Shown here: in pieces, positions 5,711 to 37,642 of the stretch | Layout of the letters: every line of letters starts with the position of its first letter | Position numbering within the stretch: position 1 is the first letter of the stretch | NCBI GenBank assembly: GCA_963823665.1 | Contig: CAWGMQ010000003.1 | Location: 1,152,001 to 1,216,000, forward strand | Origin: an uncultured Planctomycetota bacterium | GTDB lineage: Bacteria > Planctomycetota > Planctomycetia > Isosphaerales > Isosphaeraceae | Length of the DNA: 64,000 nt | Direction: 5' to 3' | Program-made: the position numbers and the translations under genes | Notes under the pieces: generated by a model | What the model saw: only the letters and a program-made list of their open reading frames with translations | Database searches by the model: none | What the model was told of the DNA's origin: nothing

Positions 5711-5716
5711 CGGCGG

Positions 5717-6055: not shown

Positions 6056-6127
6056 CCGCGCAACCAAAGTTGCCCGGTTCGCGGTTGGGCATGTTTCGCC
6101 ACGGCCGGAGTCTGCTAACATCGATTC

Positions 6128-6856: not shown

Positions 6857-6872
6857 GCGCGGACGCGTCTCC

Positions 6873-7418
6873 TCATGTCTTAAGCGGCTCGTCATGAAAT
6901 ACCCTCTTCCCGGCGGGGTCTACCACTCGGTAACCTCCCAGGCTTTCGATTTGCGGCTCGGACAGTCCAGTCAGAATCATCGCGACCTGGTCCAAAATCG
7001 GTCCGTGTGCCGTCTCGAGGTCGAATTGAGTGATCGTGGCAATGAAAAGATTCGGGGCGAGGTTGGCTCCAGGAAAGCTCTTGAGGATCAGATTTCGGCT
7101 CGTCGGGCTCAGACTGTAGTTACACCCGTCGCTGCGACAACTTACGAGGATCTCGATTGGGCCCAATGGTCCCGGTACGCCGCCATGTGGCAACGGATAC
7201 ACTTGCCACCTGTCATTCTCGGTATCGCGCCTGAGCTCGGCCGCAAACTTCTTGGCTGCTGATTCCTTATCCCAAGCGTAAAGCCACCTCTTTTTTGTCA
7301 CCGGGTCCGCGACTCGTTGGGCGTTGGCAACATTGACGCCGTTTTTCTCCAAGAGGCGAATGTACGCTTCGAACTCGAAGTCACGAGCGCCACCCGGAAG
7401 ACTGACGGTGAAAACCAT
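6873..7418 (-). CDS. Hypothetical protein
   Basis: 181-aa ORF with globular composition, GGAG upstream, convergent on the nuclease-like gene. Confidence 0.7.
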   Translation of the reverse strand: MVFTVSLPGGARDFEFEAYIRLLEKNGVNVANAQRVADPVTKKRWLYAWDKESAAKKFAAELRRDTENDRWQVYPLPHGGVPGPLGPIEILVSCRSDGCNYSLSPTSRNLILKSFPGANLAPNLFIATITQFDLETAHGPILDQVAMILTGLSEPQIESLGGYRVVDPAGKRVFHDEPLKT

Positions 7419-7923
7419 GACATCATTCTCCGGGCCTACAGGTCGTACGATTGGCGATGACTGCTGTTCCAGATATTATACAGCGAGTTGACTCGGCATT
7501 CAGCCTCGTCGCCGCGATTGTGCGTTGAGCCGCGAACGTGTCCGAACGGAAGGTTCCGAGCTTCGGTGGACACCATAATGATCTGCACTCCGCCTGGCCC
7601 CGGGCCGCATCATGACCATCACCCTTCTTGAGTCCTTCGCATTGCCAATTGGCGCGGGCGAGAGTGGACTCGGGTTCCCGGGCACACCATGCCGACCTCC
7701 AACTTCGCCTGGCTCCAGGCCGCGCCATGGCGATCATCCTAGACCGGCGGGACAGCCAATCGGCACCGCCGAGAGTCGGCCCGAAGAGGTCCCGATCGCC
7801 GGGCTGCGATTCGAGAAGTAGGGCCGCAGGGCGTGGTTCGCGAAGGTCGACGCGGGCGAGCCCTGCTGGCTTTCACGGACTGGCGAACAACGAATCCGGC
7901 CGTGATTCGCCTCGAGCAACGAA

Positions 7924-7993
7924 TACCGAAGGTGGGACTTGGACCCACACCCCCATTACAGGGACCGGATTTTGAGTCCGGCGCGTCTGCCAT
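7924..7993 (-). pseudogene. tRNA-Leu(CAA) 3' fragment, copy 1 (att-like)
   Basis: Minus strand reads ATGGCAGACGCG-CCGGA CTCAAAA TCCGG, then a long variable arm, then GTGGGTCCAAGTCCCAC-CTTCGGTA. The 5' acceptor and D-stem strand is missing. Confidence 0.85.
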
Positions 7994-8130
7994 CTGCCTG
8001 ACGTTGGGCTGATGTTGATTTGACGTTGATTTCTGGGATTTTGCCGGGGTCTACGTTAGCCCGCGGCCGTCGATCGCATTGTAGTCGCGTTGGGCCGACA
8101 TGCGCAATGTATGCAGAAGAATTGCAGAAA

Positions 8131-8380
8131 ACCCGCACCGTCCGCTTGTTTCGCGATGGCCAGGCCGCGATCTCAGCCGAGTTGTCGGGCATCATCGATC
8201 GACTGGGTAGTAGTGCCGAAAGTTGGTGGTCGCGGATCGAGAAGCTGAGCAACGAGCGCCTGCTCGGCTGCTTCTTTGCGGCGAGGCGGGAACGCTTGCG
8301 CGAGGCGGCGCGTGGCCTCGGCGTTCATCATCTGGCAAACCTAGGCGGATGTCCGGCACGACAGAGCGCAGCCGATCATT
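8131..8380 (+). pseudogene. C-terminal fragment of a planctomycete transposase (probably Y1/REP-associated type)
   Basis: RLFRDGQAAISAELSGIIDRLGSSAESWWSRIEKL...LLGCFFA..RERLREAA..LGVHHLANLGGCPAR resembles the C-terminus of this family as I recall it. No start or catalytic domain is present. Confidence 0.55.
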
Positions 8381-11300
8381 CGGGGCTGATCTTTTTTCCG
8401 CCCGCCGAGATGCTGAAAACGTGATTGCCCGAAAGCACAGCGCCCGATAGGCCGGTGACGCCTGCGGGAGATCCACCGACCACGGTAATCTGGCCTCCGG
8501 TCCGCAAGGTCTGCTTGCCGGCAAACTTCAGTGTGACCGAGTCGTTCGCTGCGCTGTACTTGACCGAAAAACTCGTGATCGGGTGAAGAATGTGCCGGGT
8601 CTGCTTCTTGACCCGCTTGGTGGTGATGGACTCGACTTGATAATCGTCGGGGTTTGCCGCATCCGAGGAACTGAGCGCCGCACTGAAGTCGAACACGAAT
8701 CCGCTCAAGACCGCCTTTCCGATTGGCTTGCCTTTCTTGTTGGTTTTGCGGTGGAAGATCGCTTGTTCGCCGATGATCATAAGCGGGTTAGGAGGTGGTG
8801 TCGTCGCGCTCACGTTGAGGGTGCCGCTGGCGCTATTGCCCGCGTAGGTCGACTCACCGGCGAAACTGGCACCCACACGCCCGAGTAAATGCCGGCATTG
8901 AGGCCGGCCAGGCTCACGCCCGAGAGCGTCGCGACCCCGTTCGTGCCGGTCGTCGCCGTGCCGACGGTCGTGACCGTCCCATCCTCGTTCAGGGTGAAAG
9001 CGATCGTCTTGCCGGCGAGCGGCGAGCCGTTCGCGGTCAGCGTGCACGTCAATGTTGCAGTGCCGCCCAAGGTTCCGCTGCCGGAGACGGCCGAAAGGTT
9101 CGTGGCCTGGCCCACGGAGCTGAAATAGCTGAACTGGTACGACGACGAGGTGGGCGACGTCCCGGCGGGCGTCACCACGGTCACGTCCACCGTGCCGGTA
9201 CCAGCGGGGCTCGCGAGCGTGATCTCGGTGGCCGTATCGTTCGTGAATGTGTGGACCTGCATCGACCCGAAATCGACGGCCGATGCGCCGGCCAAGTTGG
9301 TGCCTGTGATCGTGACCGTTGTGCCACCGGTGGTCGGTCCAGTCGCCGGAGCAATCCCTGTCACAGCCGGCGGCCCGGTCGCGGCGACATAGCTGAACTG
9401 GTAGGCCGATGAGGTGGGCGACGTGCCGGCCGGCGTCATCACGGTCACGTCCACGGTGCCGGTACCAGCGGGGCTCGAAAGCGTGATCTCGGTGGCCGTA
9501 TCGTTCGTGAATGTGTGGACCTGAATCGAGCCGAAATTGACGGCCGAGGCGCCGGCCAGGTTGGTGCCCGTGATCGTCACCGTTGTGCCACCGGTGGTCG
9601 GTCCTGTCGCCGGTGCAACCCCTGTTACAGTCGGAGGCCCGGTCATGGTGACATAGCTGAACTGGTAGGCAGATGAGATGGGCGACGTACCCTCAGGCGT
9701 CACCACGGTCACGTCCACCACGCCGGTACCAGGCGGGCTCGTGAGCGTGATCTCGGTGGCCGTATCGCTCGTGAATGCGTGGACCTGCATCGAGCCGAAA
9801 TTGACGGCCGAGGCGCCGGTGAGGTTGGTGCCTGTTATCGTCACCGTCGTGCCGCCCGTGCTTGGTCCCGTCGCCGGTGCGAGCCCTGTCACAGCCGGAG
9901 GCCCGATCGCGGCGACATAGCTGAACTCGTAGGCCGACGAGGCGGCCGATGTACCGTCCGGCGTCATCACGGTCACGTCAACCGTCCCACTACCAGCGGG
10001 GCTCGCGAGCGTGATCTCGGTGGCTGTATCGCTGGAAAAGGTGTTGACCTGCATCGACCCGAAATTGACGGCCGAAACGCCGGCCAAGTTGTTGCCTGTA
10101 ATCGTCACCGTTGTGCCACCGGTGGTCGGTCCTGTTGCCGGTGAAACGCCAGTCACAGCCGGAGGCCCGGTCGCGGTGACATAGCTGAACTGGTCGGCCG
10201 ACGACATGACCGAGACACCGGCCGGTGTCACGACGGTCACGTCCACCATGCCCGTACCACCGGGGCTTGGGACCGTGATCGTGGTACTATTGACCACCGT
10301 GACGCCCGTCGCCTGCATCATGCCGAAGTCGACCACCGTACCGTCGGTGAATCCGGTACCGGTGATCGTCACCGTTGTGCCGCCCGGGGCCGGTCCCGTT
10401 GACGGGCTGACGCCCGTGACGACCGGCAGCACCGCGGTGAGCACGACCGCCTCGCCGCCGTCGGCTTGATAAGAAATGGCGAACTGGCTGCCGTCGGCCG
10501 CCGTGACCACGCTGCCCTGGGGCAAGCCGTTGAAGACGCCAGTGACGCCGCTCCCGCTTTGCACGATCGTGAAGGTGGTGCCCGCGGCGATCGCGGTGCT
10601 TGGAACGACCTGAAGTATCGCATCGTTCAGGTCGATCGATCCACTGACCACGAGCTGCGAATAAGTGCCGGCCGTGATTCCGTCGCCCGGTGTGGTCCCA
10701 TTGATCGAAACGCCCAGCGTGCTGCCCGAGGGCAGAGTGAACGCGCTGGCCGTGACGCCCAGCAGGGTGACCGACCCGCGGCTGTTGTTGGTCTTGTCGG
10801 TGCTCTGTTCGAGGTCGAGCACCAGCGACCCCGAGCCGGTGTCGAGTGTGGCGCCCGAGGTCATCGTGATGTCGGCGTCTCCGGGGTCGCGCTCGCTGTT
10901 GACGACGCCGTCGGCGACGGAGTCGTTGGCGATAAGCGATAGGTTTCCATTCGCGGTGTTGATACCCGCATTGATTAAGATGCTGCGGCCAGTCTCCAGA
11001 GTCAGGTTGCCGGGGGTGCTGGTGGGTGTCACGGTGATCGGGCTGTCGATCGTGATGTCGTCGTTGGACTGGATCGTGACGTTGGTTCCGGCGTTCAGGT
11101 CGCGGGTCAGGAAGCTCGGGGCGACGGTGATGGTCTGGCCCTCGCCGAGCGCGTAGGTCAGCTCGTTCGGGTCGGTAATGGCAACCGTGGCGCCGGCAAT
11201 GAACGAATTCCCTGACGAAAGGGGCTGAATGGCTGCGCCCAGGAAACCGCCGGTGAATGTGTTTTGGGGGTCGGGCGTTTTCTGGCCGTCGATGGACGCG

Positions 11301-14300
11301 CCGTTGGAACCATCGAACCACGTGTTGACGTCTAGGTTGCCAGGGGCGTCCCAGAACACGTAATTACCGTTGGGAAGGACGACGACTCCGGCGGCGCCGG
11401 TGTACATCACGAGGGGGATGTCGGTGAAGCTGTTTGCGCTCGAGGCGGTGCCAAGCGTCTCTGTGGTCCCGTTGAACCACGTCACCGCTCCCGTGCTCTG
11501 GTTCCACAACGGACTGATCACGACGTAATCGCCGTTGGCGAGCGCGGTGATTCCTCCGACGATTTCGGGCCCGTCCTCGTTCACGGTGCCGCCGCCGATC
11601 TCGTCCCCGGCAGTTGGACCCACGCTCGCTGTGCTGCCGACGAAGCTGTTCGCGCTGGAGACGGAGCCGTCAACCCCCGCAGTGCCGTCACCCCAAGTCA
11701 CGGCCCCTGCCTGGAAGCCCCATTGCGGACTGTCGACGACGTAATTGCCGTTGGAAAGCGCAGTCACACCTTGGCTGCCCACGCTGTCAGCGAAGTACGT
11801 GCCAACCAGGCTGTTGGCGGCTGAGACGGTGCCTACGGACCCCGTCGTTCCGTTTCCCCAGGTCACCGCCCCTGTGTCACTACTCCACCCCGGGCTGTCG
11901 ACGACGTAGTTGCCGTTCGTCAGTGCCGTGATGCCACCGCCGCTGATCGAATCGCTCAAGAGGTCTACTTTGTTTTGCGGATTGCTCCCGACCAGGCTAT
12001 TGGTGCTGGAAACCGTGCCCCTGGTTCCTGTCGTGCCGTTGCCCCAGGTTGCCGCTCCAATATCGCTGTTCCAATCGGGGCTGGCCACGACGTAGTTGCC
12101 GTTGGGCAGGGCCGTGATACCGCCGCCGCCCACCTGATCGCTCTGGTTGGAGCCTACCACGCTGTTGGCAGCGGAGACGACGCCGACGGTTCCTGTCGTC
12201 CCATTCCCCCAGGTCACCGCTCCCGCGCTGAAAATGATCGGTTCCGTGCCGACATTCCATTCGGGGCTGTCCACGACATAGTTGCCATTGGTAAGGGCCG
12301 TGACGCCGCCGTTGACTCCGGAGCCAACGGCGCCGCCGACGGGGCTGCTGGTGCCCACCAGGCTGTTGGTGGCGGAGATGGTGCCGACGACACCTGTTGT
12401 CCCGCTCCCCCACGTCGCCGCACCGGCACCGTTGTTCCAGTTCGGGCTGACCACGACGTAATTGCCGTTCGTGAGAGCGGTGACCTGATACCCGACATCG
12501 TCTTCCTCGTTGGTGCCCACGAGGCTATTGACAGCGGAGACGACGCCAGTGACGCCCGCCGTGCCGCTGCCCCAGGCCGCCATGCCCGTGCCGTCATTCG
12601 AGTCGACGTCGGATACGACGTAATTACCGTCCTCGAGAGGCGTCACCTTTTCGTCATCGCCGGTATCGTCGAACTCGATGAGGCTGTTGGCCGGCGAGAT
12701 CGTGCCAGCACTACCGGTCGTCCCGTTTCCCCACGTCACCGCGCCCTCCAAGTTGCTCCAGTCCGGGCTGGAAACGACGTAATTGCCGTTAGCCAGAGCC
12801 GTGACGCCGCCAGTGCCCACGCGGTCGTAAGCGTTGCTGCCGATCAAGCAGTTGGCGGCTGAGGCGGTGCCGGTGGTTCCTGTCGTCCCGTTCCCCCACG
12901 CCACTCCCCCGGCTCCGACATCCCAGTATGGGTCATCCACGACGTAGTTGCCGTTCGTGAGGGGAGTGATCGGGATCGCGCCGGGTTGTCCTCCGGGAAA
13001 GACAAAACTGTTGGCGGCCGATACGGTGCCGCTGACGCCAGTTATCCCGCTCCCCCAGGTCGCCGAGCCGGTGCCGGTCGCCACGAAATTGCCGTTGGTC
13101 AAGAGAGTGACCGTGGAGGCCCCATCGAGAACACTAATCAGAGCCCCGGTCTCACCGTTGTAGAGCGAGACCGTGTTCGCAAACGGGTCGGCACCGACGA
13201 TGTTGCCGGTGCTGAGCGTGAAGAATTGGTCGTCTGAGCCCGAGAGGTTGAACTGCGGAAACACGCCGTTGGTGGCGCTGACGACCAGTGCGCCCGGCGT
13301 CGTGTTGACCGTCAACGTGGCCGGCGCCGTGGTCGCGGTACCGGACGAGTTGGTGAAAACGGCGCGGTATTCATCGCCGTTCTCGGCCGCGGTGGTGTTG
13401 AACGTCAACGTAGTGGATGTGGCACCGGCAACATTACTGAACGTGGTACCCGCGTCGGTGCTGACCTGCCACTGGACGGTCGGGGACGGCGTGCCTGCGC
13501 CAGAGGCCACGAACGTTACGGGGTTTCCGGCGCTTACGACCTGACTTACGGGGTTGGTCGTTACCTCGACGTAGTTGCCGGCCACGACGGTGAGGGTTCC
13601 TGAGCCGCTGCTGCCGGAATACACCGTGTTGCCGGCGTAGCTGGCGCTCACGAAATTCGCGAACGTGCCAACGTGAAAGCCGGCAAGGGCCACAGTGCTC
13701 AAGACAGCGGTTCCGCTTGCGTTGGTCACCGAGCTGCCCACGGTCGTCGGGTTGCCGTTCTCAATCAACGTGAACTTGAGCGTCTGCCCTGCAAGACTCA
13801 CGCCGCCGGTGGTCAGGCTCGCCGTCAGGGTGCCGGCGCTGCCGGAGGTCCCCTCGCCCGAGACGGCCGAGACGGTTGTCCCCAAGAGAACGATGGTTCC
13901 GATCGTGATGGTCGCTGGGTCCTCAGTGCTGCTTGGCGCGAAATCAGGATCGTCGGGGGTGTAATCAGCGCTGATGGCATGCATCCCGAGTGAGAGCATT
14001 GCGTCTCTCGTCGTCGCCGCGCCGTCGACGAGCGCAACCGGGTCGCCGTATGGATCGCCATCAACGGAGAACTGGATCGTGCCGGTCGGAGTTGCCGGAC
14101 TTGCACTTTGGCTGGTGTTGGCCACCGTGGCTGTAAACGTGACACTTTGACCGAGGCCCGCGACAACTCCGGGTTGGGTGGTGACGGTGGTGGCAGTCGC
14201 GTCGGCCTGCACGACAAGAGTCGCAGGTTCCTGAGAGCTGCTCGGCGCGAAGTCTGGGCTGTCCGGCGTGTAGGCAGCCGTGATCGAATGCGACCCCACG

Positions 14301-15319
14301 GGAAGATCTGCGTCATCGATGGTGGCCATGCCATCGTCCAGGTCCGCCTGAGCGCCATACGAATTGCCATCGACGAAAAATTGCACCGTCCCGGTCGGGG
14401 CCGGCGGATTCGTGTCGCCGCTGATGTCGTCCACCGCGGCCTCGAAGGTCACGTCCTGACCGAAGTCCGCGTCGCTGTCCGGGGTCGTAGTAACGGTAGT
14501 GGACGTCGGGTCCGGTGGCGCAATGCTCGCGTCCAGATTGGCATCAACGAGCCACCCAGCGTTACTGATGCCGGCGGGGGCTGGAGGCGCTGGCGTTTGG
14601 CCGGCGAGGTTCTCCGAGAACGTGAGCGTGAACGTGTCGCCGATCCGAGCATGGAGCGTCCCCATCTCGTTGTCCGTGGGTCCCGGCCCGACCGGTCTGA
14701 TGATCCCGATGCCGCCCAGTTGGTCCGTCTTGGATGCCAGCGATGTGGTGACGCCGTTATACGTGTAGCTCGCCGAGTACGTGAAGCTGGCCGTCGCGTT
14801 GTTGGACGCGAACGTCTCCACGTTGAAGGAGAAGGCGAATTCCACGTTGACCGCGGCGCCAGCCCGCTCACCGGGATTCGTGGCGACGATCGTGATGGGA
14901 ACGGCGGCGCCGATATTACCGTTCGTGTCGGCCAGGCCCGTGTTCACCGCGACGCTCGCGATGCCGTTTTTGGGCACGCTTCCCTGGGACAGAATGTCGA
15001 GGTTGACACCCGGATTGTCCGTGGTCGACGCTGCGCTCGTCAGCGTGACGTTTGATACCGCCGTGCCGTCGTTATGCGAGAACTTTTGAGTAGCCGGCGT
15101 GTTCAGATTGGACAGCTCATTCTCGGCTTGGACGACCGAATCGAGCGTCGACTGCTCGGCGAGCGCACCCGAGAATTGCAGCGTCGCAAGCAGCGTCCGA
15201 TCTTCCAGCGATTCGATGCGGGGCACTCGCGTGCGACGGAACCGCGCCGAGCAACCCGCGGTCTGGTTCCGATGCATGCGGCCCCTGCCCGTGTGATGTG
15301 CAAAAGTCTTCATCGACAT
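8376..15319 (-). CDS. Giant secreted adhesin-like protein (about 2300 aa): LExRxLL leader, bacterial Ig-like domains, DUF5650-like repeats, five IPT/TIG domains, basic C-terminal module; one frameshift near 8876
   Basis: RIESLEDRTLLA; PTGTVQFFVDG...G.H.ITA.Y; repeated LTNGNYVV.SP.W...GAVTWG.G; P.VTGV.PATGPT.GGTTVTITG. ORF 8810-15319 continues into the 8376-9047 frame at GIYSG/VGASFAG. Confidence 0.85.
9120..10430 (-). repeat. Five tandem 264-bp IPT/TIG domain repeats
   Basis: TAGCTGAAC anchors at 9126, 9390, 9654, 9918 and 10182. Confidence 0.93.
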
Positions 15320-15859
15320 GACCGCACCTCGTGGTGAAGCGCTCAGCGGGTCTCACGGCTGCGACGAAAGGCGGAAAGCTCGGTGCGAGAGCGCACCGCG
15401 AGCGCGAACTCAGCATCTCTCGACAAAGAGACGTTCGTTCGCCGGAAAACTCACGCGAGGTTCGGAAAACTCTCTTTATCGACCTGCAGACGCGCTAGAA
15501 AAGCCGTCCGGCCATCTCGGCCCGATTGAACGCCAAAACAGGCCAAGGAGCGAATCGCCGCTTCCAGCACCGGACATTGTTGCCGTTCTAAGGTGTCGGC
15601 CAAGACAACAACAGTTCATGGTACAACATGCCACTCGATCACGGCAACACGCTGGTTCTGGATTTTGGCGACTGGCCAAGGCGTATGCGGTGGGTGATGT
15701 AGGGGCCGACGATCACGCGGTATGCCCCCTCGCTCATCCCTTCTGCGAACAGCAGGGCATGCAATGTAAGATCGAAACGTCGCACCGACTTGGAGTCTTC
15801 TTTCGTAGGATCTCTGCGCGGGGCGTGCGTCCGCGATCGCCCGACGGAGGCGGCTCCTA

Positions 15860-16269
15860 GTGCGCCTGTAATTGCAGCGAATCAGCAGGGTGAAAGTCCT
15901 TGCGGAGGTGTTCTGGCGCTTCGTAACCGACGGTAACTGCGTCGCCGTGAGGCGGGGTGGAGAGCAACCCGAGGTGAACCATCAGTCCGTAACGCAAGTA
16001 AACTCGATTCGGCCGATCGTCGTGGCGAGCCTGCTAGGAAATGGCGAAGCCCAATTGACGCTTGGTCCTGAAAGGGACGGCCATGGATACATGGTCCGGT
16101 AAGCCTGGCATTGAAAAACCCAGAAATGTGCCGGGACGAGGACGGGTGGTTGGAGACGGAATGATCGGAAGATTCGTTGACGAGAAGCAGGGAGACCTGG
16201 GCGGTACCAAGCCGGTGTTCATGCTCGTAGAGCCAAAGAGCCGACCGCCCAGGAGTCAAAGCATCCGTA
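15860..16269 (+). mobile_element. Group II intron 5' remnant A (domains I to start of III, no RT, no DV/DVI)
   Basis: Starts GTGCG. Has GCAGGGTGAAAGTCCTTGC, CGCCGTGAGGCG, GGCGAAGCC, a CTGGGCGG...CCGCCCAG DII-like stem, then a GGAGTCAAAGCATCCGTAG DIII-like start. Confidence 0.75.
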
Positions 16270-16359
16270 GTGTCTGCTGGGCAGTGTTTTGATCCGGAGG
16301 GTTCAAGTCCCTCGGCAGCCCGGATGAGGGGCGGCATATCCAAAGGCGCGGGTAACGCC

Positions 16360-17948: not shown

Positions 17949-18189
17949 GGGTAACGCCTCGCTGGCTGGGGAACGTGACCAAGGCGAACCCTAAACGGGC
18001 ACGAAGTTGTGCGTGGGCAAGATAATCGAGACGGACAACCCCGACGGCCACGCACTTCACACGGGAATTCTGGGAAGCCTGGGCAACCGAAGGATCGAAA
18101 TGAGTTTCGAACCAGCAGCCCAGTCGACGTAAACCGCGTAGTCAGAGGTGCCTGGCCGACTGAGCCGGCCGACTGAGCCGGCCCACCAA

Positions 18190-18312
18190 ATCGCGGCCGA
18201 CGCCACCGTGGCTTGGGCTGCCAAACTCTCCGTCGGGTGGGTGCAACCCACCAGGATCGCGGCCGACGTCACCGTGGCTTGGGCTGCCGGACTTTTCGTA
18301 GGGTGGGTGCAA
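18190..18312 (+). repeat. Two 66-bp units containing a REP-like hairpin GT(C/A)GGGTGGGTGCAACCCACC
   Basis: Units start at 18190 and 18256. The second hairpin is completed after the IS at 19860-19875. Confidence 0.8.
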
Positions 18313-19859
18313 CTACCCCTGTGAACATGCAGATGCGAAATTAGCTAAACTGTGATTCTACTATGCTTTGATCCCTTTGTTCCCGCGGCAGGGGCTCCGC
18401 GGGACTTGTCCAGGAGCTTCTTGGTGGCAACGTGATGAATCCTGCTCCCGGAAGTCTTTTTGGTCTTCCTGGGCTTCTTCGGGCCCCGTCGCGATCGGAG
18501 CATCCGGTCCACGGGCACCTTGGCGGCCAAGGCGCTGAGCAGTCCGGCCACTTCGCCCGCCACGCAGCCGTCCAGAAACGACCAAACCGACGGTGGTGCG
18601 GCAATCATCATCCCGGGGTAAACCTCGGCGATGTCATTGACCAGGGCGTGATTCGACACCTCATTGACCATCTCGTCGCCGTGGACCGCTCGCAGATTCC
18701 CCTTCAAGACGGCCAAGCCGTTTCCGGCAATTACAGACATGGAGAAGCCGAACAGAGCTGCTCGAGGGTATCCCAGCGTGGGGATTTCGCAATGCAGAAG
18801 GTCGGTCAACTTCTGGAAGTGCTTCTCAATTTCCCATCGTCCGCAGTAGGCCTGGCAGCACAACTCCGCCGAGGCCGTGTCCGGGAGGTTAGTTATCAAG
18901 ATGATCTCGGTCTCCCCGTCGCGGGTGGGTTGGTCCAACCTCAAGACGATCCGTCGCAGGCGATAGCGACGCCCCTCGCATTCCGGATCATCGACCCAGA
19001 TTGCTTGCTCAAGAATCTCGCCGGCCTTGCAGCGTCCGACCGACCGCAACGGCTTGATCGCCTGGAACGGCATGGTGGAAGAATGCCAGCGGACCAAGAA
19101 GAACGCTTCGGTTCGCAGGATCCGAAACACGAAGCTCCGGACGCAGAAGTTACGATCCATGATCCAGAGCTGGCCCGGCGCGATGACCACCTGATCCAGC
19201 AGCGAGCGCTCCTGGGTGTGGGCGTTCTCCTCAAGGATGAGGTCGAGCACCAGGCCACTGACCGGCTCGTAAATGGCCAGCGACATGCCCGGCAGGGCCG
19301 CCGAACGAGTCGAGCGCAGTTCATTGATGCGATGATCGGTCCCTGTCAGGATATTGCCGTCGAGGATCCTTGCTGTATATCCCGGGATCGGCTCGGGCAG
19401 GAGGCAATCAGCAGCGGAGATGAGTTCGCGGGCTCGACTGGCGGTCTCTCGTACGATGGCGGCGGCTACGCCAGGTTCCATCCGACCCAGCTTGCGGTAG
19501 AAAGCGGACAGCGAAGCCACGAGGTGCAGTTGGCGCTTCAGGAATGCCTCCCGCGGGGAGCGCCGAAAGCCGCAGGCGACATCACACATCACCTGAACGA
19601 AATGACCGAGCAAAAATTCTCGCGTGTATTGTCCCTCGGACACCTCATCAAGAATGGGGTCAATCGAAGTGCGTTCGATCATCCAATCCAGGGCGATCCG
19701 GGCCATGACCGCCGGAGCTGCCTCCTCCGCGAATGGGTCGAGTTTGGATGGGAGAACCATTGGACCTCCTTGTCCGGACGAATTGATCCAGCGCGAACCT
19801 ACCAATCCTTTTCGGCAAAAGAGGTTATGACAATTAAATCTGCATGTTCACAGGGGTAG
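18313..19859 (-). mobile_element. IS4-family insertion sequence, 1547 bp
   Basis: Perfect 22-bp IRs CTACCCCTGTGAACATGCAGAT (18313-18334 and 19838-19859); 10-bp duplication GTGGGTGCAA (18303-18312 and 19860-19869). Confidence 0.95.
18345..19805 (-). CDS. IS4-family DDE transposase, intact (start may be 19760)
   Basis: ILDGN, IMDRNF and YCGRWEIEKHFQKL motifs. Confidence 0.9.
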   Translation of the reverse strand: MVGSRWINSSGQGGPMVLPSKLDPFAEEAAPAVMARIALDWMIERTSIDPILDEVSEGQYTREFLLGHFVQVMCDVACGFRRSPREAFLKRQLHLVASLSAFYRKLGRMEPGVAAAIVRETASRARELISAADCLLPEPIPGYTARILDGNILTGTDHRINELRSTRSAALPGMSLAIYEPVSGLVLDLILEENAHTQERSLLDQVVIAPGQLWIMDRNFCVRSFVFRILRTEAFFLVRWHSSTMPFQAIKPLRSVGRCKAGEILEQAIWVDDPECEGRRYRLRRIVLRLDQPTRDGETEIILITNLPDTASAELCCQAYCGRWEIEKHFQKLTDLLHCEIPTLGYPRAALFGFSMSVIAGNGLAVLKGNLRAVHGDEMVNEVSNHALVNDIAEVYPGMMIAAPPSVWSFLDGCVAGEVAGLLSALAAKVPVDRMLRSRRGPKKPRKTKKTSGSRIHHVATKKLLDKSRGAPAAGTKGSKHSRITV

Positions 19860-20063
19860 GTGGGTGCAACCCACCAGGAATGCGCCCGGCCTGACCTTCC
19901 GACCGAAAGTCTGCGCCTCAGATTCAAGCGCTGAACGTCCTCGGCTTGACCGGAGTCATCATCCAGATCCGACTCATCTCCGATGGCGCGACATCCGTGC
20001 AGGTGCCCTGGCGAGAGTTGGTAGTGGAGAAGAAATCGTAGCCGTGCGCGAGGCTCGATCGTG

Positions 20064-20131
20064 TCCCGAAGACTGGACTTGAACCACACCCTTTTGCGAG
20101 GACCGGATTTTGAGTCCGGCGCGTCTGCCAT
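20064..20131 (-). pseudogene. tRNA-Leu(CAA) 3' fragment, copy 2 (more degenerate T arm)
   Basis: ATGGCAGACGCGCCGGACTCAAAATCCGGTCCTCGCAAAAGGGTGTGGTTCAAGTCCAGTCTTCGGGA, with the 5' end missing. Confidence 0.85.
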
Positions 20132-20431
20132 CAGCGTGGCATTGGAAACAGGTTGGGCTGATAGTTAAATTACTCGTGTGGCAAGCGGTTACGTCACACT
20201 TTTCTGCCAGCAGCTTTGCAGCCACGTTGGGCTGACATTGCCAATGTTGTTGCCAAATTGTTGCCAAATTGTCCAGGTTCCGGCTAGGCAAGGGTGCTCG
20301 CACTCCCCAAACGCGAGCAACAGCATGGCACTTTCTCCTCGAATCGACGGGGCTTGACCTTGGATGTGCCAGCCCTGTCGAAGCCCCGCGGGTTTCATTA
20401 TCATCGAACTAGAGCGGTGAAGGAGAAAGCC

Positions 20432-21157
20432 ATGTCCAAGTATCAATCCGCGGCAGGGTTCCCGACCACTCACTGGAGTTGCGTTCTTCGCGCTGGCCAT
20501 CCGACCGATCGGGAAGGCCGAGACGCACTAGAGCGACTGTGCCGCGATTACTGGTATCCGCTCTATGCCTTCGCCCGTCGTCAGGGGCTCGATCGAGAGG
20601 AGGCCGGCGACCTCGTTCAGGGGTTTCTGGCGGACCTGCTTGAGCGTGGCGACCTGACGAAAGCCGACCCCGCTCGTGGCCGGTTCCGCTCGTTTCTCCG
20701 AACCGCCTGTAGCCACTTCCTGTCCCACGCCCGCGATCATGACCGCGCTCTTAAGCGAGGAGGAGGCCGTACTCCGGTCTCGATCGACCTGCACGACGCC
20801 GAAGGACGTTACATCAACGAACCGGCCCACGACCTGACGGCCGAACGCCTCTTTGAGCGGCGCTGGGCTATGGTCCTGCTCAGACATGCCCTGGCTCGCC
20901 TGGAATCAGAGGCAAGCCGCGGAGGCAAGTCTGATCTATTCCACCACCTGCGACCCATGCTGGAGGGAAATGACGTGGTGGATTCCTACAAAGAAATCGG
21001 CGAAACGCTGCAAATGAGCGAGGGTTCCGTCAAGCTCGCCGCTCACCGCTTCCGAGGTCGGTACCGGCAAATCCTTCGAGAAGAGGTCGCCCGGACCGTC
21101 GCCGATCCGGCTGAGATCGATGCGGAGATCGCCGATCTCTTGCGGGCGTTGTCGTGA
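20432..21157 (+). CDS. ECF sigma factor of the Ser/Thr-kinase-associated planctomycete type
   Basis: FPTTHWS...ALERLCRDYWYPLYAFARR...GRFRSFL...KRGGG; AGGAG before ATG 20432. Confidence 0.9.
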   Translation: MSKYQSAAGFPTTHWSCVLRAGHPTDREGRDALERLCRDYWYPLYAFARRQGLDREEAGDLVQGFLADLLERGDLTKADPARGRFRSFLRTACSHFLSHARDHDRALKRGGGRTPVSIDLHDAEGRYINEPAHDLTAERLFERRWAMVLLRHALARLESEASRGGKSDLFHHLRPMLEGNDVVDSYKEIGETLQMSEGSVKLAAHRFRGRYRQILREEVARTVADPAEIDAEIADLLRALS

Positions 21158-21182
21158 TTCCGACACCCACTGAAGAATTCGC

Positions 21183-21211
21183 TGTAACCTTCCGCAATTC
21201 GTCCGTCATGA
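21183..21211 (+). promoter_or_regulatory. Putative ECF-type promoter for the kinase gene
   Basis: TGTAAC (21183-21188), N15, CGTC (21204-21207), matching the general ECF AAC/CGT pattern. Confidence 0.5.
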
Positions 21212-21252
21212 GAATGTAGTGGGATCGTGGTCCGCTTCTGGGAGGCTGGGTC

Positions 21253-24200
21253 ATGAGTGATCGTGAGAACTGCCGGGTTTGCGGAGAGAAGCGGCCGGCG
21301 GATGCGCCTTCGGGGCTCTGTCCGGCTTGTTTGCTGAAGGCGGGGCTCCTGGGCGAGGGCTCCCGCTTGCCGGATGTGACGATCACGTTCGGGCCGGCCT
21401 CGTCGAGCGTCCTGGCCTCTTTCGGGGAAGCCTTCGGAAAGATCCCGCCGGTTCTGCTCCGGGATGCCGACTCAGTCACCGATCCTGGCCCGGTGATCCA
21501 ACCGTCATCCTCCGAAATCCCCGACCCCGCCGACCGTTCAGCGCGCTTGCAACTCTTCGGCGAGATCGCTCGCGGCGGCATGGGGGCCGTGCTCAAGGGC
21601 CGTGATTCCGACCTCGGTCGCGACCTCGCGGTGAAGATCCTGCTCGAATCCCATCGCGACAAGCCCGAGATGATCCGCCGGTTCATCGAGGAAGCGCAGA
21701 TCGCGGGCCAGTTGCAGCATCCGGGGATCGTGCCGATCTACGAGCTGGGAGCCTTCGGCGACCGCCGCCCCTATTTCGCCATGAAGCTGGTCAAGGGCCA
21801 CACTCTTGCGGAAATCCTCGCGAATCGAAAGTCAGCCGGCGACGGCTTCCCGCGCCTGCTTTCGATCTTTGAATCCATCTGCCAGACCATGGCCTACGCC
21901 CACGCCCGAGGCGTGATCCACCGCGATTTGAAACCGACCAACGTGATGGTCGGATCCTTCGGCGAGGTCCAGGTGATGGATTGGGGCCTGGCCAAGGTGC
22001 TGCCTCGCGGCGGAGCGGTCGAGGATGCCTCGGCCGGTCATACGAAGGACCAGGGGACGGTCATTGCCACGGCACGTAGTGACTCGGATTCGGATCTTTC
22101 CCAAGCGGGCTCAATCATGGGGACGCCGTCGTACATGGCCCCCGAGCAGGCTCGTGGCGAAGGTAATCAGGTCGACGAGCGCGCCGACGTGTTCGCACTC
22201 GGCTCGATCCTCTGTGAACTTCTGACTGGTCAGCCCGCTTTCACCGGCCGATCCTCCGGCGAGATTCAGCGCAAGGCCGCACGGGGGGATTTGAGTGACG
22301 CCGTCTCGCGTGTGCAAGCCTCCCGCGACGACCCCGACCTGATCGCGCTGACCGAGGCGTGCCTTTCGCCCGAGCGCGACGACCGTCCCCGCCATGCGGG
22401 TGAGGTTGCCGAGCGGATCGATGCCTATCGGACGGGTGTCCAGGAGCGAATGCGCCAGGCCGAACTCGCCCGCGCCGAGGAAACAGCGCGAGCGGAGGAG
22501 GCGACCAAGCGGGCGCGCGTCGAGCGCGATCGGCTGCGGCTGGCGCTGGCGCTGGCGGCCTCGATTCTTGTGCTGGTGGTTCTCGGCGGCGGTGGGGGCT
22601 TTTGGTTTTATCGACAGCGCCAGGCCCGCTTGTCGAGCGTCGAGGCCGTGCTCGTACGGGTGCAGACTCTCCGTGAGCAGGCCCAAAGCCGCGGCGCAGA
22701 TCCCTTGCCATGGCGCGAGGCGCTCGCCGCGGCCGAGCAGGCCCTCGCGTCGATCGGCGATCTGGCCGCGACGGTGCCCGGCCGTCGCCTGTCCGCGCTT
22801 CGCGACACAATCGCCGAGGACGAGAAGCGGGCCAAGCGCGAAACCACTTTCATGGCCGACCTGGCGGATGTTCGCTCAAAGCGCGGTCTGAAAACAATGG
22901 ACGCGGAGAAAGGCTACCCCAAGGCGTTTCGACGCTACGGACTTGACCTGACGACCACGCCCGTCGAGCAAGCCATCACTCGTCTAAAAACGCTCCCCGA
23001 GGCGCTTCGCCACGAGGTCGTGACGTTTCTTGATGACTGGGCCTTCGCGCGCGGCGGCACCGAAAACGAGACCGCCGGCCCGCTGGCGCTGGCGCGGGGG
23101 CTCGATCCCGATCCCGAGCGCAACCGCCTCCGCTCTCTCCTGGAAAACAAGGACCTGAAGGCGGATGCCGACGCCTTGTCCGGCATGGCGAAGCGACCGA
23201 ATCTGATCGAGTCCGGGCCGTCCACGGCCCTGCTCCTGGCCTCGGCGCTGGAACGGGTCGATCATAAGGACGCGGCAATTGGCGTGCTCCGCGCCACGGT
23301 GGTGCGATACCCCGGCGACCTCTGGGTGAACAGTGAGCTGGCTCATCGCTTGAACGAGATGGAGCCACCACAGTCTGCGGAGGCGATCCGTTACTACTCG
23401 ATTGTTCGCGCCCTGCGGCCTAGTTCGGGGCGCGAACTCGCGGACCTCTTGCGAGATGAAAATAGAGCTTCCGAGGCGGAAGCGATCCGTCGCGAATTGA
23501 CCAAATTACAGCCAGACGATCCAAGAACATGGAGCGAGCTGATCGAACTTCTCAAGACCCGACGTAACGCCGAGGGGATCCGCGAGATCGGCAATCAGTG
23601 GGTCGACTGGGTTCGCGAACAGATCAAGCGCGCACCCAATGAGGCTGCCCCTCACCTGAAAGCCGCTTGCGTCTACCACGTGTTGAATGACAGACCGAAC
23701 CAGATCGCCGAGCTCAAGGAAGCGGCTCGTCTCACCGAGAAAGGTCGCCTCGCGATCGACCACCTTCTCGGCCACGTGCTTTTTTTCGAGGACGACTTGA
23801 AAGGCGTGGCCAACGCCTATCGTGAGGCCCTGCGAGTCGACCCCACGGATCTCAATTGTGTTTACGAACTCGCCTTCAGCCTCTGCCTTTCGGGTGACCA
23901 TAAGGGAGAAGTGCAAGCTCTCCGCGAAGCTGTTCGACAGAAATCCGTGGCTGCCCAGCGAGTGGAGGCGTATTTCTCCGATGTAGAATCCTACACAGAA
24001 TTTTTCGATGATGATTTCTCTATTGCATCTAACTATATGATATTATATTTACACACATATGACCAAGGATATCAAGCTCTAGGCTGCGCGCTGGCGGAAA
24101 CAGGGGATCTTGCCGGCGCGATAGCTGCTTGCCGTGAAGCGATTCGGCGCGACGAGCGCGGCGCGATGATCCATACTGATTTCAGTAGTTCATGCACATT

Positions 24201-25086
24201 CAGCGGCAGCAATGACATTGAAACTCCCTACAGTTTCCCAGTCCTTTCCATCCTTATGAACGACGACCCTTCGAAGCTGATCCCCGAACTCCATGAGGCG
24301 ATCCGGCTCAAACCCAAACTCGCGGCGACTCAGGTCGGATTCCATCTTGCCGTTGCTCTTGGTCGTTCGGGCAACGTCACAGGCGCGATCTCCACGATTC
24401 GGAAAGCAATTGAGCAAGGGCCACAGGTCAGATTGGACACTCTCCATCTCATCTGGCCGATCGCTCTGATAGACCAAAAGAAGGATTTGATCGCGATCTT
24501 GCGCCAACTCCGCGAAGGAGCCAAAGAAGACAAAGCCATTGTTGTATGGATCGATCGCGCGATTCTTCTCACCGAGCGGCTCATGGCGATGGGCTCACGG
24601 CTCGCGAAGGTCTTCCACGGAGGAGGCCGCGGCGATGTTTATTCGAGGATGTGCCGAATTCGGCGGCTCTACGCCCTGGACGCTGCACTCTGGTCCGTGG
24701 CCTTCGACGTGGAACCAGCTCTGCTCGAGGATCGCTTAGGTTGGTATCGCTACTCCGCTGCCTGTTCCGCCGCGCTGGCGGGATGTGGAAAGGGAAAGGA
24801 TCAGCCTCCGCCCGCCGACGCTGAGCGCGCCAAGCTTCGTGGCCAAGCCCTCACATGGCTCCGCGCCGAGTTTTCGGCCAAAGCCAAGGTCCGAGAAACC
24901 GGTACGCCCGGAGCCACCAAGGATCTGCACGGGACACTTCAACACTGGCGAGAAGACCCCGACCTCTCCGGCGTTCGCGACCCCGAAGCCTTGGCCAAGC
25001 TCCCCGAGGCCGAGCGCGCGACTTGGCGGGCGCTCTGGGCGGAGGTCGAGTCCCTGGAGAAGCGGCTCCGAACGACGCCTCCTTGA
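21253..25086 (+). CDS. Hanks-type Ser/Thr protein kinase with hydrophobic segment and TPR repeats
   Basis: GGMGAV, AVK, HRDLKPTN, DWGLAK, GTPSYMAPE; N-terminal CxxC...CxxC; TM-like LALALAASILVLVVL; TPR-like helices. Confidence 0.95.
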   Translation: MSDRENCRVCGEKRPADAPSGLCPACLLKAGLLGEGSRLPDVTITFGPASSSVLASFGEAFGKIPPVLLRDADSVTDPGPVIQPSSSEIPDPADRSARLQLFGEIARGGMGAVLKGRDSDLGRDLAVKILLESHRDKPEMIRRFIEEAQIAGQLQHPGIVPIYELGAFGDRRPYFAMKLVKGHTLAEILANRKSAGDGFPRLLSIFESICQTMAYAHARGVIHRDLKPTNVMVGSFGEVQVMDWGLAKVLPRGGAVEDASAGHTKDQGTVIATARSDSDSDLSQAGSIMGTPSYMAPEQARGEGNQVDERADVFALGSILCELLTGQPAFTGRSSGEIQRKAARGDLSDAVSRVQASRDDPDLIALTEACLSPERDDRPRHAGEVAERIDAYRTGVQERMRQAELARAEETARAEEATKRARVERDRLRLALALAASILVLVVLGGGGGFWFYRQRQARLSSVEAVLVRVQTLREQAQSRGADPLPWREALAAAEQALASIGDLAATVPGRRLSALRDTIAEDEKRAKRETTFMADLADVRSKRGLKTMDAEKGYPKAFRRYGLDLTTTPVEQAITRLKTLPEALRHEVVTFLDDWAFARGGTENETAGPLALARGLDPDPERNRLRSLLENKDLKADADALSGMAKRPNLIESGPSTALLLASALERVDHKDAAIGVLRATVVRYPGDLWVNSELAHRLNEMEPPQSAEAIRYYSIVRALRPSSGRELADLLRDENRASEAEAIRRELTKLQPDDPRTWSELIELLKTRRNAEGIREIGNQWVDWVREQIKRAPNEAAPHLKAACVYHVLNDRPNQIAELKEAARLTEKGRLAIDHLLGHVLFFEDDLKGVANAYREALRVDPTDLNCVYELAFSLCLSGDHKGEVQALREAVRQKSVAAQRVEAYFSDVESYTEFFDDDFSIASNYMILYLHTYDQGYQALGCALAETGDLAGAIAACREAIRRDERGAMIHTDFSSSCTFSGSNDIETPYSFPVLSILMNDDPSKLIPELHEAIRLKPKLAATQVGFHLAVALGRSGNVTGAISTIRKAIEQGPQVRLDTLHLIWPIALIDQKKDLIAILRQLREGAKEDKAIVVWIDRAILLTERLMAMGSRLAKVFHGGGRGDVYSRMCRIRRLYALDAALWSVAFDVEPALLEDRLGWYRYSAACSAALAGCGKGKDQPPPADAERAKLRGQALTWLRAEFSAKAKVRETGTPGATKDLHGTLQHWREDPDLSGVRDPEALAKLPEAERATWRALWAEVESLEKRLRTTPP

Positions 25087-25376
25087 GCAGTCATTCCCGT
25101 ACGATCCCGCCACCGCTGAATTCGGGGCGGTTACGATGCTGCCCTGATCAACGTACGCCCCAGCGACATCGGTCTATCTCGGGAATTGATAAATTGATAA
25201 GAGAAGCCATGCGGGAGTTCGGGCCCGATGGCTAGGGGCAGCCTCTCTGCTGGCCGCTGCGGCCACAGAATCGCCGGCAGTTCTCACTGAAGCCGACAGA
25301 ACTTGACCGAATCCTGCGCTGCGGACTGGTACTTGCCCGGGTACAATACATCCATCGGAAACCGAGGAGAACCACC

Positions 25377-25583
25377 GTGCCGGAACTGACCTTGGAAAGC
25401 CTGGCCCGCCGCCTCGAAGATGTCGAGCGGCGTCTGAACGAGAAGGAAGCCAGCAGCGCCAAAGATTGGCGTATGGCTGCGGGTATGTTCACCGGACGGG
25501 AGTTTTCGAAAATCGTCGATGAAGAAGGCCGAAAAATACGCGAAGCCGATCGGGATGAGGCGCGCCAGGAATTCGGAGAGTGA
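25377..25583 (+). CDS. Putative antitoxin
   Basis: 68-aa charged protein with GAGGAG SD and GTGA overlap with the PIN gene. Confidence 0.75.
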   Translation: MPELTLESLARRLEDVERRLNEKEASSAKDWRMAAGMFTGREFSKIVDEEGRKIREADRDEARQEFGE

Positions 25584-26005
25584 TCCTTCTGGACACCGAT
25601 CATTTGACGGTTCTCAAGTACACCGACAGCGAGCGCTACGCGCGGCTCCATGGCCGATTGCTCGTTGCGGCCCCGGAACTGATAGGCACCACTATTGTCA
25701 ACGTTGAGGAACAAATGCGGGGCTGGTTGTCCGCAATCGCCAAAGAACGAATACTACTGCGTCAGATCACCGCCTACCGCGAGCTGACAGACCTGTTCGA
25801 TTTTTTCGCCAAGTTCAACATCATTTCTCTGACTGCCGACGCGGTAGACCTGTTCAACGGCTTCCGCAAATCGGGCATCAAAATCGGCACCATGGATCTG
25901 AAGATGGCCTCCATCGCGGTGGCCAATAGCGCACTTTTTCTCACGGCAAATTCGCGAGATTTCGAGAAAGTGCCGGGGCTAAGATCCGAGAATTGGCTCG
26001 AATAG
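25580..26005 (+). CDS. vapC: VapC-family PIN-domain toxin
   Basis: MILLDTD...EE...GTMDLKMASIA...LTANSRDFEKVPGL..ENW. Confidence 0.9.
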   Translation: MILLDTDHLTVLKYTDSERYARLHGRLLVAAPELIGTTIVNVEEQMRGWLSAIAKERILLRQITAYRELTDLFDFFAKFNIISLTADAVDLFNGFRKSGIKIGTMDLKMASIAVANSALFLTANSRDFEKVPGLRSENWLE

Positions 26006-26166
26006 CGAACGCGTGAGCGTCAGGTCAGCCTTATCGTCATTGAAGGACACCATTCTGGCGGAGTGGTGATCCTGTCTCCGCACCTCGGCGATCCGTTTGA
26101 AACGCACCAATGCGGCCGGGGCCGAGCCCACTCGAAGCCGATCACTTAGCATTTTGCACCAAGAAG

Positions 26167-26235
26167 TACAGAAGGTGGGACTTGAACCCACACCCCCTTG
26201 CGGGGACCGGATTTTGAGTCCGGTACGTCTGCCAT
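26167..26235 (-). pseudogene. tRNA-Leu(CAA) 3' fragment, copy 3 (best preserved)
   Basis: ATGGCAGACGTACCGGACTCAAAATCCGGTCCCCGCAAGGGGGTGTGGGTTCAAGTCCCACCTTCTGTA; there is no complementary 5' acceptor strand. Confidence 0.88.
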
Positions 26236-26611
26236 CCGTCCGGTACTGAGCTGATGCCGACTTGACGTAGATTTCGATGATTTCTTAGGGGTTTACGATA
26301 ACCCCGCTGTTCTTCGCATTGTAGCCGCGTCGGCATCACAGGGGGCAACATCTGTGGAAGAATTGCAGAGGATCCTTGATCGGTATTCCTGTTCGGTTTT
26401 CGTGTCTGGCGCCCTCTTCGAGATCCCACAAAGTGACGCTGTGACGGAGATGGACGGTGGCGGTTCCGGGGTAGCCTGCCGATGAAGAGGGTGACGGGGC
26501 GGCGATGAGCGCGCCGGCCGAAACCAAGAGGAACGGTCCGCAGTGGCGGACCCTACGAGAGACGGGACGCTGCGATGGTGGTTCACTGTGCACGCGGTTT
26601 CCTTCGGGCTC

Positions 26612-29880: not shown

Positions 29881-29994
29881 CTCATGGCGAAGTGCGATCG
29901 CCGGCGAGGGCGGGACCGGGGTGGAAGAGAGTTGGACCGGGGAACGAACTTCGACGAGACTGAATCCGGTGATTGAAGCGGCGGAGCAAATCCG

Positions 29995-31970: not shown

Positions 31971-31987
31971 GGGTGAGGATTTTGCCG

Positions 31988-37624: not shown

Positions 37625-37642
37625 AGGTCACGCATGCTGTTC

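What the first reader, a model, noticed from the sequence alone, without database searches (positions are those of the whole stretch)
7924..26369. Integrase-free cassette stack delimited by three tRNA-Leu(CAA) fragments cut at the same D-loop base
Seen: three co-oriented minus-strand tRNA-Leu(CAA) copies (7924-7993, 20064-20131, 26167-26235) all begin at GATGGCAGACG and lack the 5' acceptor strand. They bound segments of about 12 kb (adhesin, intron and IS debris) and about 6 kb (ECF, kinase, vapBC). I found no integrase in either segment and no intact tRNA-Leu upstream, where core genes resume at about 29 kb. Known: tyrosine integrases duplicate tRNA 3' portions, islands can accrete in tandem, and crossover usually occurs in the anticodon loop, T loop or 3' end. 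Inference: this is an array of cargo cassettes mobilised in trans by an integrase family whose identity block reaches the D-loop, functionally similar to an integron that uses tRNA fragments as sites.
Basis: partly seen in the sequence, partly recalled or inferred. Interest (0 to 1): 0.8.

Follow-up and report, generated by a model that had tools for sequence, protein, structure and literature searches.

The report
Orphan attachment-site arrays collecting gene cassettes
In some very large planctomycete genomes, leftover docking sites of a tRNA-targeting mobile element have spread far from the tRNA gene and collect stacks of integrase-free gene cassettes, often signalling kinases, that move intact between genera.

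Summary
The three tRNA-Leu(CAA) fragments are real. Each is the core of an att site of about 215 bp: a conserved 130-150 bp arm plus tRNA bases 15-84. They are 3 of at least 33 such sites at 16 loci in this 16.5-Mb planctomycete genome, and none of the CAA sites lies beside the only intact tRNA-Leu(CAA). The cognate tyrosine integrase belongs to an IME-like element (TrwC relaxase, VirD4-like coupling protein). That element sits behind the intact tRNA in relatives but in an orphan array here. The same locus in a congeneric genome holds 7 sites with other cargo. Two integrase-free att-to-att units (4.4 and 12 kb) recur end to end in different genera at about 90-96% identity, against about 72-78% in core DNA. 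The D-loop cut is not supported: variants at tRNA positions 23-26 follow the upstream side, and 25 of 147 fragments stop just after the anticodon stem, so crossover is the ordinary anticodon-loop class. Most sites lack the downstream arm, which favours hitch-hiking with the IME (CIME accretion) over excision in trans. Verdict: a new variant of IME/CIME accretion, uncoupled from its target gene and multiplied genome-wide.

The parts
26164..26377 (-). Head att site: worn type-A arm (direct repeat at 26352-26368) plus tRNA-Leu(CAA) positions 15-83; anticodon-loop overlap at 26212-26218. Kept at the orthologous place in congeneric G001.
20279..26163 (.). Cassette of about 6 kb: ECF sigma factor, Ser/Thr kinase with TPRs, vapBC-like pair; no recombinase; not found whole in 121 family genomes.
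20432..21157 (+). ECF sigma factor (TIGR02937, E 2.3e-8, below the curated cut-off)
21253..25086 (+). Ser/Thr kinase with TPR repeats, 1277 aa
25377..26005 (+). 68-aa ORF (putative antitoxin, not scanned) overlapping a VapC-like gene at 25580-26005
20062..20278 (-). Middle att site: type-B arm (direct repeat at 20249-20267) plus tRNA positions 15-83; overlap at 20108-20114
8140..20061 (.). Cassette of about 12 kb: remnant of a small convergent gene at its left end, IS4 pieces (16376-17879, 18345-19805), group II intron fragment (15941-16099), 2169-aa adhesin-like gene (8810-15319); no recombinase; not found whole in 121 family genomes.
7919..8139 (-). Last att site: type-A arm (direct repeat at 8111-8127) plus tRNA positions 15-84; overlap at 7970-7976
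5561..7994 (-). 2.4-kb block, 2423 of 2435 columns identical to G000 C10:1147144-1149578. Identity starts at the tRNA fragment behind a different arm and fades inside a DUF433/DUF5615 toxin-antitoxin-like pair.
29343..48430 (+). Conserved chromosome syntenic with G001 (about 83% identity), the right flank of the variable locus; a short syntenic piece also lies at 26643-26956.

Best explanation
The window holds one of several orphan arrays of attR-type sites of a planctomycete IME family whose tyrosine integrase targets the anticodon loop of tRNA-Leu. SHOWN: site anatomy; the cognate integrase and its IME; arrays away from the tRNA; variable cargo at a fixed locus; end-to-end cassette sharing between genera; crossover 3' of tRNA position 26. 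INFERRED: (1) every site keeps a full core and so serves as a fresh attB. (2) An IME integrates at such a site, sometimes excises using the next site downstream, and carries the integrase-free neighbour along by conjugation with a helper's pore. (3) In the recipient the IME excises alone or decays, leaving a cassette with a right arm but no left arm. (4) New loci are seeded by integration at secondary sites or by riding inside other islands. The result works like a dispersed cassette array, but the cassettes are CIME-type hitch-hikers.
For: Integrase homologs (84% and 89%) lie directly behind an intact tRNA-Leu(CAA) with the same arm repeat in L041 and L042. The G000 copy keeps the catalytic R, H-x-x-R, H, Y motif (my reading). 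It lies with TrwC, a VirD4-like protein and RepA/ParA/ParB between two att sites of an orphan array on C4; L041 has a coupling protein and a relaxase-type helicase too. 33 fragment sites lie at 16 loci in G000. The orthologous locus in G001 has 7 sites and other cargo. A 4.4-kb ECF plus kinase unit is 95.5% identical att-to-att in G001 and G070, and a 12-kb unit is about 90% identical in G070 and G071, against 72-78% in core DNA between genera. The P-arm repeat lies upstream of 108 of 151 fragment sites and the P' repeat downstream of 17 of 151; background is 41 of 5000. 94 of 96 neighbouring site pairs are co-oriented. Stem-only sites are enriched at array ends (15 of 41 against 15 of 85) and armless sites at orphan array heads (10 of 32 against 10 of 77) (sites are not independent).
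Against: No circle, empty site or IME-plus-cassette composite was seen. The window's two cassettes were not found whole elsewhere; only pieces match. Most segments are mosaics: only 3 pairs among the 93 segments match end to end, and one of these is within one genome near contig ends with identity running past the site. The 2.4-kb duplicate ends at an att site on one side only. No excisionase or mating-pore genes were identified. One near-full-length tRNA copy (G051 C40) carries the 'element' variant at positions 25-26. Positions 15-22 are well conserved (0.86-0.97), which the model does not explain. Many arrays in other genomes lie at contig ends, so their orphan status is not firm.
Confidence: 0.65

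Rival explanations
1. Integron-like system: single cassettes are excised and reinserted in trans by the distant integrase at fixed chromosomal platforms.
For: The head site is conserved in place in two species while the cargo behind it differs. The only close full-length integrase found in G000 lies on another contig. Units are small (median 5.9 kb). 25 of 151 sites keep a proximal piece of the P' side.
Against: 134 of 151 sites lack the P' arm repeat that flanks every integrase-bearing end seen; arm-dependent tyrosine integrases usually need both arms to excise (recalled). The integrase scores 39 bits against a 265-bit cut-off for integron integrases. An intact IME sits inside an array.
Confidence: 0.15
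2. Ordinary eroded islands: each segment is the dead remnant of its own IME, scattered by rearrangement, and no longer mobile.
For: 6 of 93 segments carry integrase remnants, one in the orthologous G001 array. Left ends often hold gene stumps. tRNA-anchored arrays of the classical kind exist (9 of 41 arrays). IS debris is common.
Against: End-to-end identity of integrase-free units between genera, far above core identity. The core is kept at 0.94-1.0 over positions 27-43. 84 of 93 segments match none of four integrase queries. The window locus is syntenic on both sides in G001 yet differs in cargo.
Confidence: 0.12
3. The repeats were laid down by the IME, but shuffling is by RecA or gene conversion between the 60-200 bp repeats, without the integrase.
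For: The 2.4-kb duplicate runs from an att repeat to a homeologous toxin-antitoxin gene, like a conversion tract. Proximal 14-bp segments assort between arm types. The right junction of the 4.4-kb unit shares the same 3' allele in both genomes.
Against: It does not explain transfer between genera, the pile-up of ends right after the anticodon stem, or the same end point in CAG-type sister sites.
Confidence: 0.06
4. Crossover lies in the D-loop, a fourth tRNA subsite.
For: Identity to the tRNA starts sharply at position 15 (0.10 at 14, 0.86 at 15) and positions 15-22 are conserved. Related integrases target CAA, TAA and CAG isoacceptors, which share the D-loop. One near-full-length gene has the TA variant.
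Against: 16 of 16 regular intact genes read C23/C25/G26, but only 54 of 147 fragments read C25/G26. A matched attL/attR pair differs at 23 and 26 and shares the 3' allele. The shared 4.4-kb unit differs at 25-26 and is identical from 27. TAA sites have their own arm type. Other subfamily ends start at positions 16-22.
Confidence: 0.07

Closest known systems
CIMEs and accretion-mobilisation by ICEs/IMEs in streptococci (PMC5704250 section 2.3 and passages; PMC7563491 passages)
   Same: Integrase-free units of 1.2-13 kb between att sites; an incoming IME integrates at a resident att site; composites can excise and transfer.
   Different: In the S. salivarius survey the composites held 2-3 elements and sat at the target gene. 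Here arrays hold up to 8 sites, 32 of 41 have no intact tRNA at their head in the DNA fetched, one genome has at least 33 sites at 16 loci, and some sites lack the tRNA 3' half and could not restore the gene.
Dehalococcoides ssrA genomic islands (PMC3146451, passages)
   Same: Long tandem arrays marked by tDNA fragments; 15 islands without an integration module were proposed to be cis-mobilisable.
   Different: All repeats there lie within 100 kb downstream of ssrA and use a serine recombinase. Here a tyrosine integrase acts and the arrays are dispersed over several contigs.
Tycheposons of Prochlorococcus (bioRxiv 10.1101/2020.12.28.424599, passages and section 5)
   Same: tRNA-targeting cargo elements; partial tRNAs scattered in islands; a jump next to a short tRNA segment in another island was observed, a direct precedent for orphan sites being used.
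   Different: Tycheposons carry their own integrase, and most islands adjoin the tRNA. No relaxase or coupling protein is described in what I read. Here the cargo units lack an integrase and the helper is a relaxase-bearing IME.
Islander class A tDNA islands (PMC4383910, passages)
   Same: Tyrosine integrase, displaced 3' tRNA fragment, anticodon-centred crossover (2083 of 3919 islands).
   Different: Islander needs an intact tDNA within 200 kb and an integrase in each island, and lists only 4 tandems of three or more. These arrays would be filtered out.
Integrons and integrase-less attC clusters (recalled, no call)
   Same: Co-oriented array of variable cassettes at a fixed locus, one site per cassette, toxin-antitoxin cassettes.
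   Different: The sites are double-stranded, arm-bearing, tRNA-derived att sites and not attC hairpins. The integrase is not IntI. Cassettes are multi-gene and about 6 kb.

Membership tests
tRNA-targeting tyrosine-integrase island (class A) | Tyrosine integrase beside an intact tRNA gene with an element arm | tested here: met
   Met for the family in L041, L042, G014, G021, G022; not met at the window locus.
tRNA-targeting tyrosine-integrase island (class A) | Crossover in the anticodon loop | tested here: met
   Mapped 3' of position 26 and 5' of about 44 by variants and end points; one contrary copy; exact bases not mapped.
tRNA-targeting tyrosine-integrase island (class A) | Intact tRNA and its fragment flank the island | tested here: not met
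   The intact gene is on contig C8; the window lies at least 0.69 Mb from either end of C3.
IME (helper at G000 C4:534936-573792) | Integrase and relaxase, possibly a coupling protein, no full T4SS | tested here: met
   PF00589, TrwC and T4SS-DNA_transf found; no mating-pore family among 56 ORFs scanned.
IME (helper at G000 C4:534936-573792) | Excises and is mobilised by a conjugative helper | not testable with these tools
   Needs culture or reads of the strain.
CIME | No integrase or mobilisation genes | tested here: met
   Window segments and the shared 4.4-kb unit.
CIME | Retains attL and attR | tested here: inconclusive
   Right arm and both cores are kept; the P' arm repeat is absent at all three window sites.
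CIME | Derived from an ICE/IME by deletion | tested here: inconclusive
   Integrase remnants in 6 of 93 segments; none in the window.
CIME | Transfers in cis with an accreted ICE/IME | not testable with these tools
   Cross-genus identity shows transfer, not its route.
Integron | IntI-type integrase | tested here: not met
   TIGR02249 39.3 bits against a cut-off of 265.
Integron | attC hairpin sites, attI and a cassette promoter | not tested
   The sites are tRNA-derived with arm repeats; no fold or promoter scan was run.

The most novel reading that the evidence does not exclude
A domesticated, integron-like cassette system built from tRNA-derived att sites: fixed chromosomal head sites, kept across a genus and uncoupled from the tRNA gene, capture and reorder integrase-free cassettes, including stem-only ones that can enter only orphan sites. 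It would supply ECF-kinase signalling modules across genera and help drive genome expansion in 12-16 Mb planctomycetes.
Probability: 0.2. Interest if true: 0.85.

Novelty: new variant of a known kind. Interest (0 to 1): 0.6.

Why it matters
Island finders that need an intact tRNA and an integrase would miss these arrays, so a sizeable mobile gene pool may be uncounted. Planctomycetota are known for expanded Ser/Thr kinase repertoires (PMC11032199, abstract and passages), and kinase-associated ECF groups are described (PMC7826278, passages). Here 36 of 93 segments carry a kinase (57 per Mb against 22 per Mb in held DNA away from sites), and an ECF-kinase unit moved whole between genera. That gives a concrete, testable route for the expansion. 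Six of 15 genomes of 12 Mb or more had 10 or more sites, against 0 of 106 smaller ones, though assembly quality and kinship confound this. The integrase and its 215-bp site are also a candidate serial-integration tool for planctomycetes.

Tried and rejected
An intact tRNA at 26166-26249 (ARAGORN): rejected as chance pairing. Relaxed ARAGORN gave only noise. The integrases at C4:499376 and C4:564986 as cognate enzymes: only about 24-26% alike over the catalytic part of the cognate one or of each other, and no arm repeat beside the first. A weak tblastn hit near window 28996 (E 0.026) as an integrase remnant: not supported by a five-sequence profile, whose best E was 0.27. A D-loop crossover shared by CAA and TAA tRNAs: TAA sites have their own arm and integrase. 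Public reads: the best run held 0.29 of the words; four runs laid as contigs showed no att-to-att joint, which is uninformative at that cover. Empty secondary sites in G001 for four G000 loci: none could be delimited; one site lay inside a 14-kb G000-specific stretch, not at its edge. The window's cassettes as whole units in 121 family genomes, two candidates scored per genome: not found; their ECF-kinase homologs had no att site within 1.5 kb. The gene content of the 46-kb element in G041 was seen only for its first 10 kb. Literature: ten searches listed no paper on such arrays in planctomycetes; the library lacks most subscription papers, and the PMC id I tried for the 2002 tRNA-sublocation paper was not held. 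No supplements were read. Scan notes: nothing matching; one archaeal tRNA-Trp note was unrelated.
Full report
Observation. The window is G000:C3:1152001-1216000 of a 16.46-Mb, 12-contig genome. Record titles of relatives name uncultured Planctomycetaceae and Planctomycetota. The three minus-strand fragments are present as described. ARAGORN calls the third one a tRNA, but its first 14 bases are not those of the genome's only intact tRNA-Leu(CAA), which lies on contig C8. Pfam, NCBIfam and Rfam confirm the cargo. Neither Pfam on 150 ORFs, tblastn with five family integrases, nor a profile over six frames found an integrase or a remnant in the window.

The sites. Each fragment is preceded by a conserved non-tRNA arm of 130-150 bp that starts with an 11-bp direct repeat and comes in types A and B. 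In the stretches of G000 fetched around BLAST hits I count 33 fragment sites (31 CAA, 1 TAA, 1 CAG) at 16 loci: 8 co-oriented arrays and 8 single sites; 28 of 33 have most of the arm. This is a lower bound. No fragment and no integrase follows the intact CAA gene in G000 or G001 in the DNA fetched.

The integrase. A 461-aa tyrosine integrase at C4:535026 has the same direct repeat just before its start. Homologs at 84% and 89% stand directly behind an intact tRNA-Leu(CAA) with that repeat in two other genomes. More distant ones stand behind TAA and CAG tRNAs with their own arm types. In G000 the gene opens a 38.9-kb segment between two att sites that also encodes a TrwC relaxase, a VirD4-like coupling protein, RepA, ParA, ParB and restriction-modification genes; no mating-pore family was seen among 56 ORFs. 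This fits an IME as defined in PMC5704250 (passages, section 2.3). It is integrated in an orphan array, which shows that such sites are used as targets. In G001 only an 81-residue remnant (84%) and a 36% homolog were found. In G070, G071, G074 and G075 there were remnants, broken copies and 39-45% homologs.

Where the cut lies. Across 171 sites from 2.83 Mb of fetched DNA, 16 of 16 regular intact CAA genes read C23, C25, G26, while only 54 of 147 fragments read C25, G26. In G041 an intact tRNA with integrase and a fragment 46 kb downstream share a distinctive 3' allele but differ at 23 and 26. A cassette shared by two genera is identical from position 27 at its left junction and differs at 25-26. 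25 of 147 fragments end at positions 41-46, just after the anticodon stem. My filter could not count earlier ends, but the 11 dropped hits held no arm followed by the D-loop alone, apart from one at a contig end. CAG-type sites in two genomes end at the same place. So crossover lies between 27 and about 44, around the 7-base loop with its inverted 5-base flanks. This is the class A subsite, the commonest in Islander (PMC4383910, passages). Against this: one near-full-length copy in G051 carries the TA variant, and positions 15-22 stay well conserved for a reason I cannot give.

Boundaries and mobility. The orthologous locus in congeneric G001 is syntenic on both sides and holds 7 sites over 24 kb. 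It shares only the head site and a toxin-antitoxin piece with the window. Of 93 att-to-att segments (median 5.9 kb, range 0.66-38.9 kb), 2 have a full cognate-family integrase, 6 a remnant, 1 only an unrelated integrase, and 84 no match to four queries. Three pairs match end to end. One is a 4.4-kb ECF plus kinase unit at 95.5% in G001 and G070, with different neighbours and no recombinase by Pfam. One is a 12-kb kinase-STAND-WD40 unit at about 89-91%, in a tRNA-anchored array of G071 and in an array 1.5 Mb from the tRNA in G070. The third lies within G074 near contig ends and may be an assembly duplicate. A further unit shares 3.4 kb plus the right arm at 94.5% between G000 and G021 with different left ends. 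Core DNA upstream of the tRNA is 72-78% alike between genera and 83% within the genus (G001 against G070 gave no alignable pair there). Within G000, window 5561-7994 is 99.5% identical to a block on C10 that starts at the tRNA fragment behind a different arm; its other end is not an att site. The window's own two cassettes were not found whole in 121 family genomes, so their own mobility is inferred, not shown.

Mechanism. The arm repeat lies upstream of 108 of 151 fragment sites but downstream of only 17, nearly all of them integrase-bearing or integrase-remnant ends. A cassette thus has a right arm and no left arm. That is the product expected if an IME integrates at a site, excises with the next site, transfers, and then leaves alone or decays; this accretion and cis-mobilisation is described for CIMEs (PMC5704250 section 2.3; PMC7563491 passages). 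The step is inferred. It also explains stem-only left ends, which could not restore a tRNA and so suit orphan sites; the same stem-only junctions recur in different genera. Stem-only sites are commoner at array ends and armless sites at array heads (p about 0.03 each, sites not independent), as expected if secondary-site integration seeds arrays. I could not delimit an empty secondary site in G001. In G021 a CAA array lies inside an island at tRNA-Leu(TAA), a second route of seeding.

Spread. A core pattern with up to 2 mismatches hit 106 of 121 family genomes, mostly once. Ten or more hits occurred in 6 of 15 genomes of 12 Mb or more and in 0 of 106 smaller ones; a 16-Mb genome had one hit. 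Of 41 multi-site arrays fetched, 9 start at an intact tRNA and 32 do not within the DNA fetched. Many of the latter reach contig ends, so orphan status is firm mainly for G000, G001 and G070 C5.

Comparison and verdict. Each ingredient is known: class A integration, CIMEs, tandem arrays in Dehalococcoides (PMC3146451, passages: all within 100 kb of ssrA), and tycheposon jumps to partial tRNAs (bioRxiv 2020.12.28.424599, section 5). What I did not find in ten searches of the held library is the combination: dozens of att sites dispersed away from the target gene, arrays of up to 8, a fixed orthologous platform with exchanged cargo, and intact cross-genus cassettes rich in kinases. It is a new variant of a known kind, not a new crossover class and not an integron. 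Interest 0.6.

Noticed in passing
G001 C9:346229, 327222; G021 C5:535500; G000 C4:574078; L089:1800: A 16-bp motif (ATGGTGTCCCCGGAAC-like) recurs about 285-325 bp downstream of several att cores, where a shared left-end block stops. It may be a second recombination or REP-like site (22 hits in 1.72 Mb).
   Followed up: partly
window 19920-20045; G000 C10:1124265; G012 C36:16584; G000 C5:853137: Many cassette left ends carry the 3' end of a small convergent gene, in some copies with a DSG motif like a retropepsin (my reading), usually as a stump.
   Followed up: partly
G021 C39:94683-95230 (L062): Three arms stacked 180-230 bp apart with cores of different tRNA-Leu types, each cut short, like microCIMEs.
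   Followed up: no
G000 C5:829-834 kb, 874-875 kb, 949-951 kb: Clusters of low-scoring tRNA genes (tRNA arrays), with tyrosine integrases at C5:881143 and 948458.
   Followed up: no
G051 C40:12688 (L146): A second, near-full-length tRNA-Leu(CAA) with three or more changes, including the variant typical of element ends.
   Followed up: no
G070 C3, C1, C2; G074 C12, C6; G071 C13; G075 C11, C20: Contigs end at or inside att arrays, one exactly at the end of a fragment, which suggests strain variation or repeats that break assembly.
   Followed up: no
G008 C13:106119-108775: An insertion of about 2.6 kb splits an att site inside the tRNA variable arm, with a short duplication.
   Followed up: no
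G000 C4:1191157-1192523: DNA 90% like the region just downstream of the intact tRNA on C8 is fused to an armless att core.
   Followed up: no
window 28489-28805 and 1888-5550: A short tandem repeat element also scattered in G001, and a 1220-aa repeat-rich protein gene with 249-bp internal repeats.
   Followed up: no
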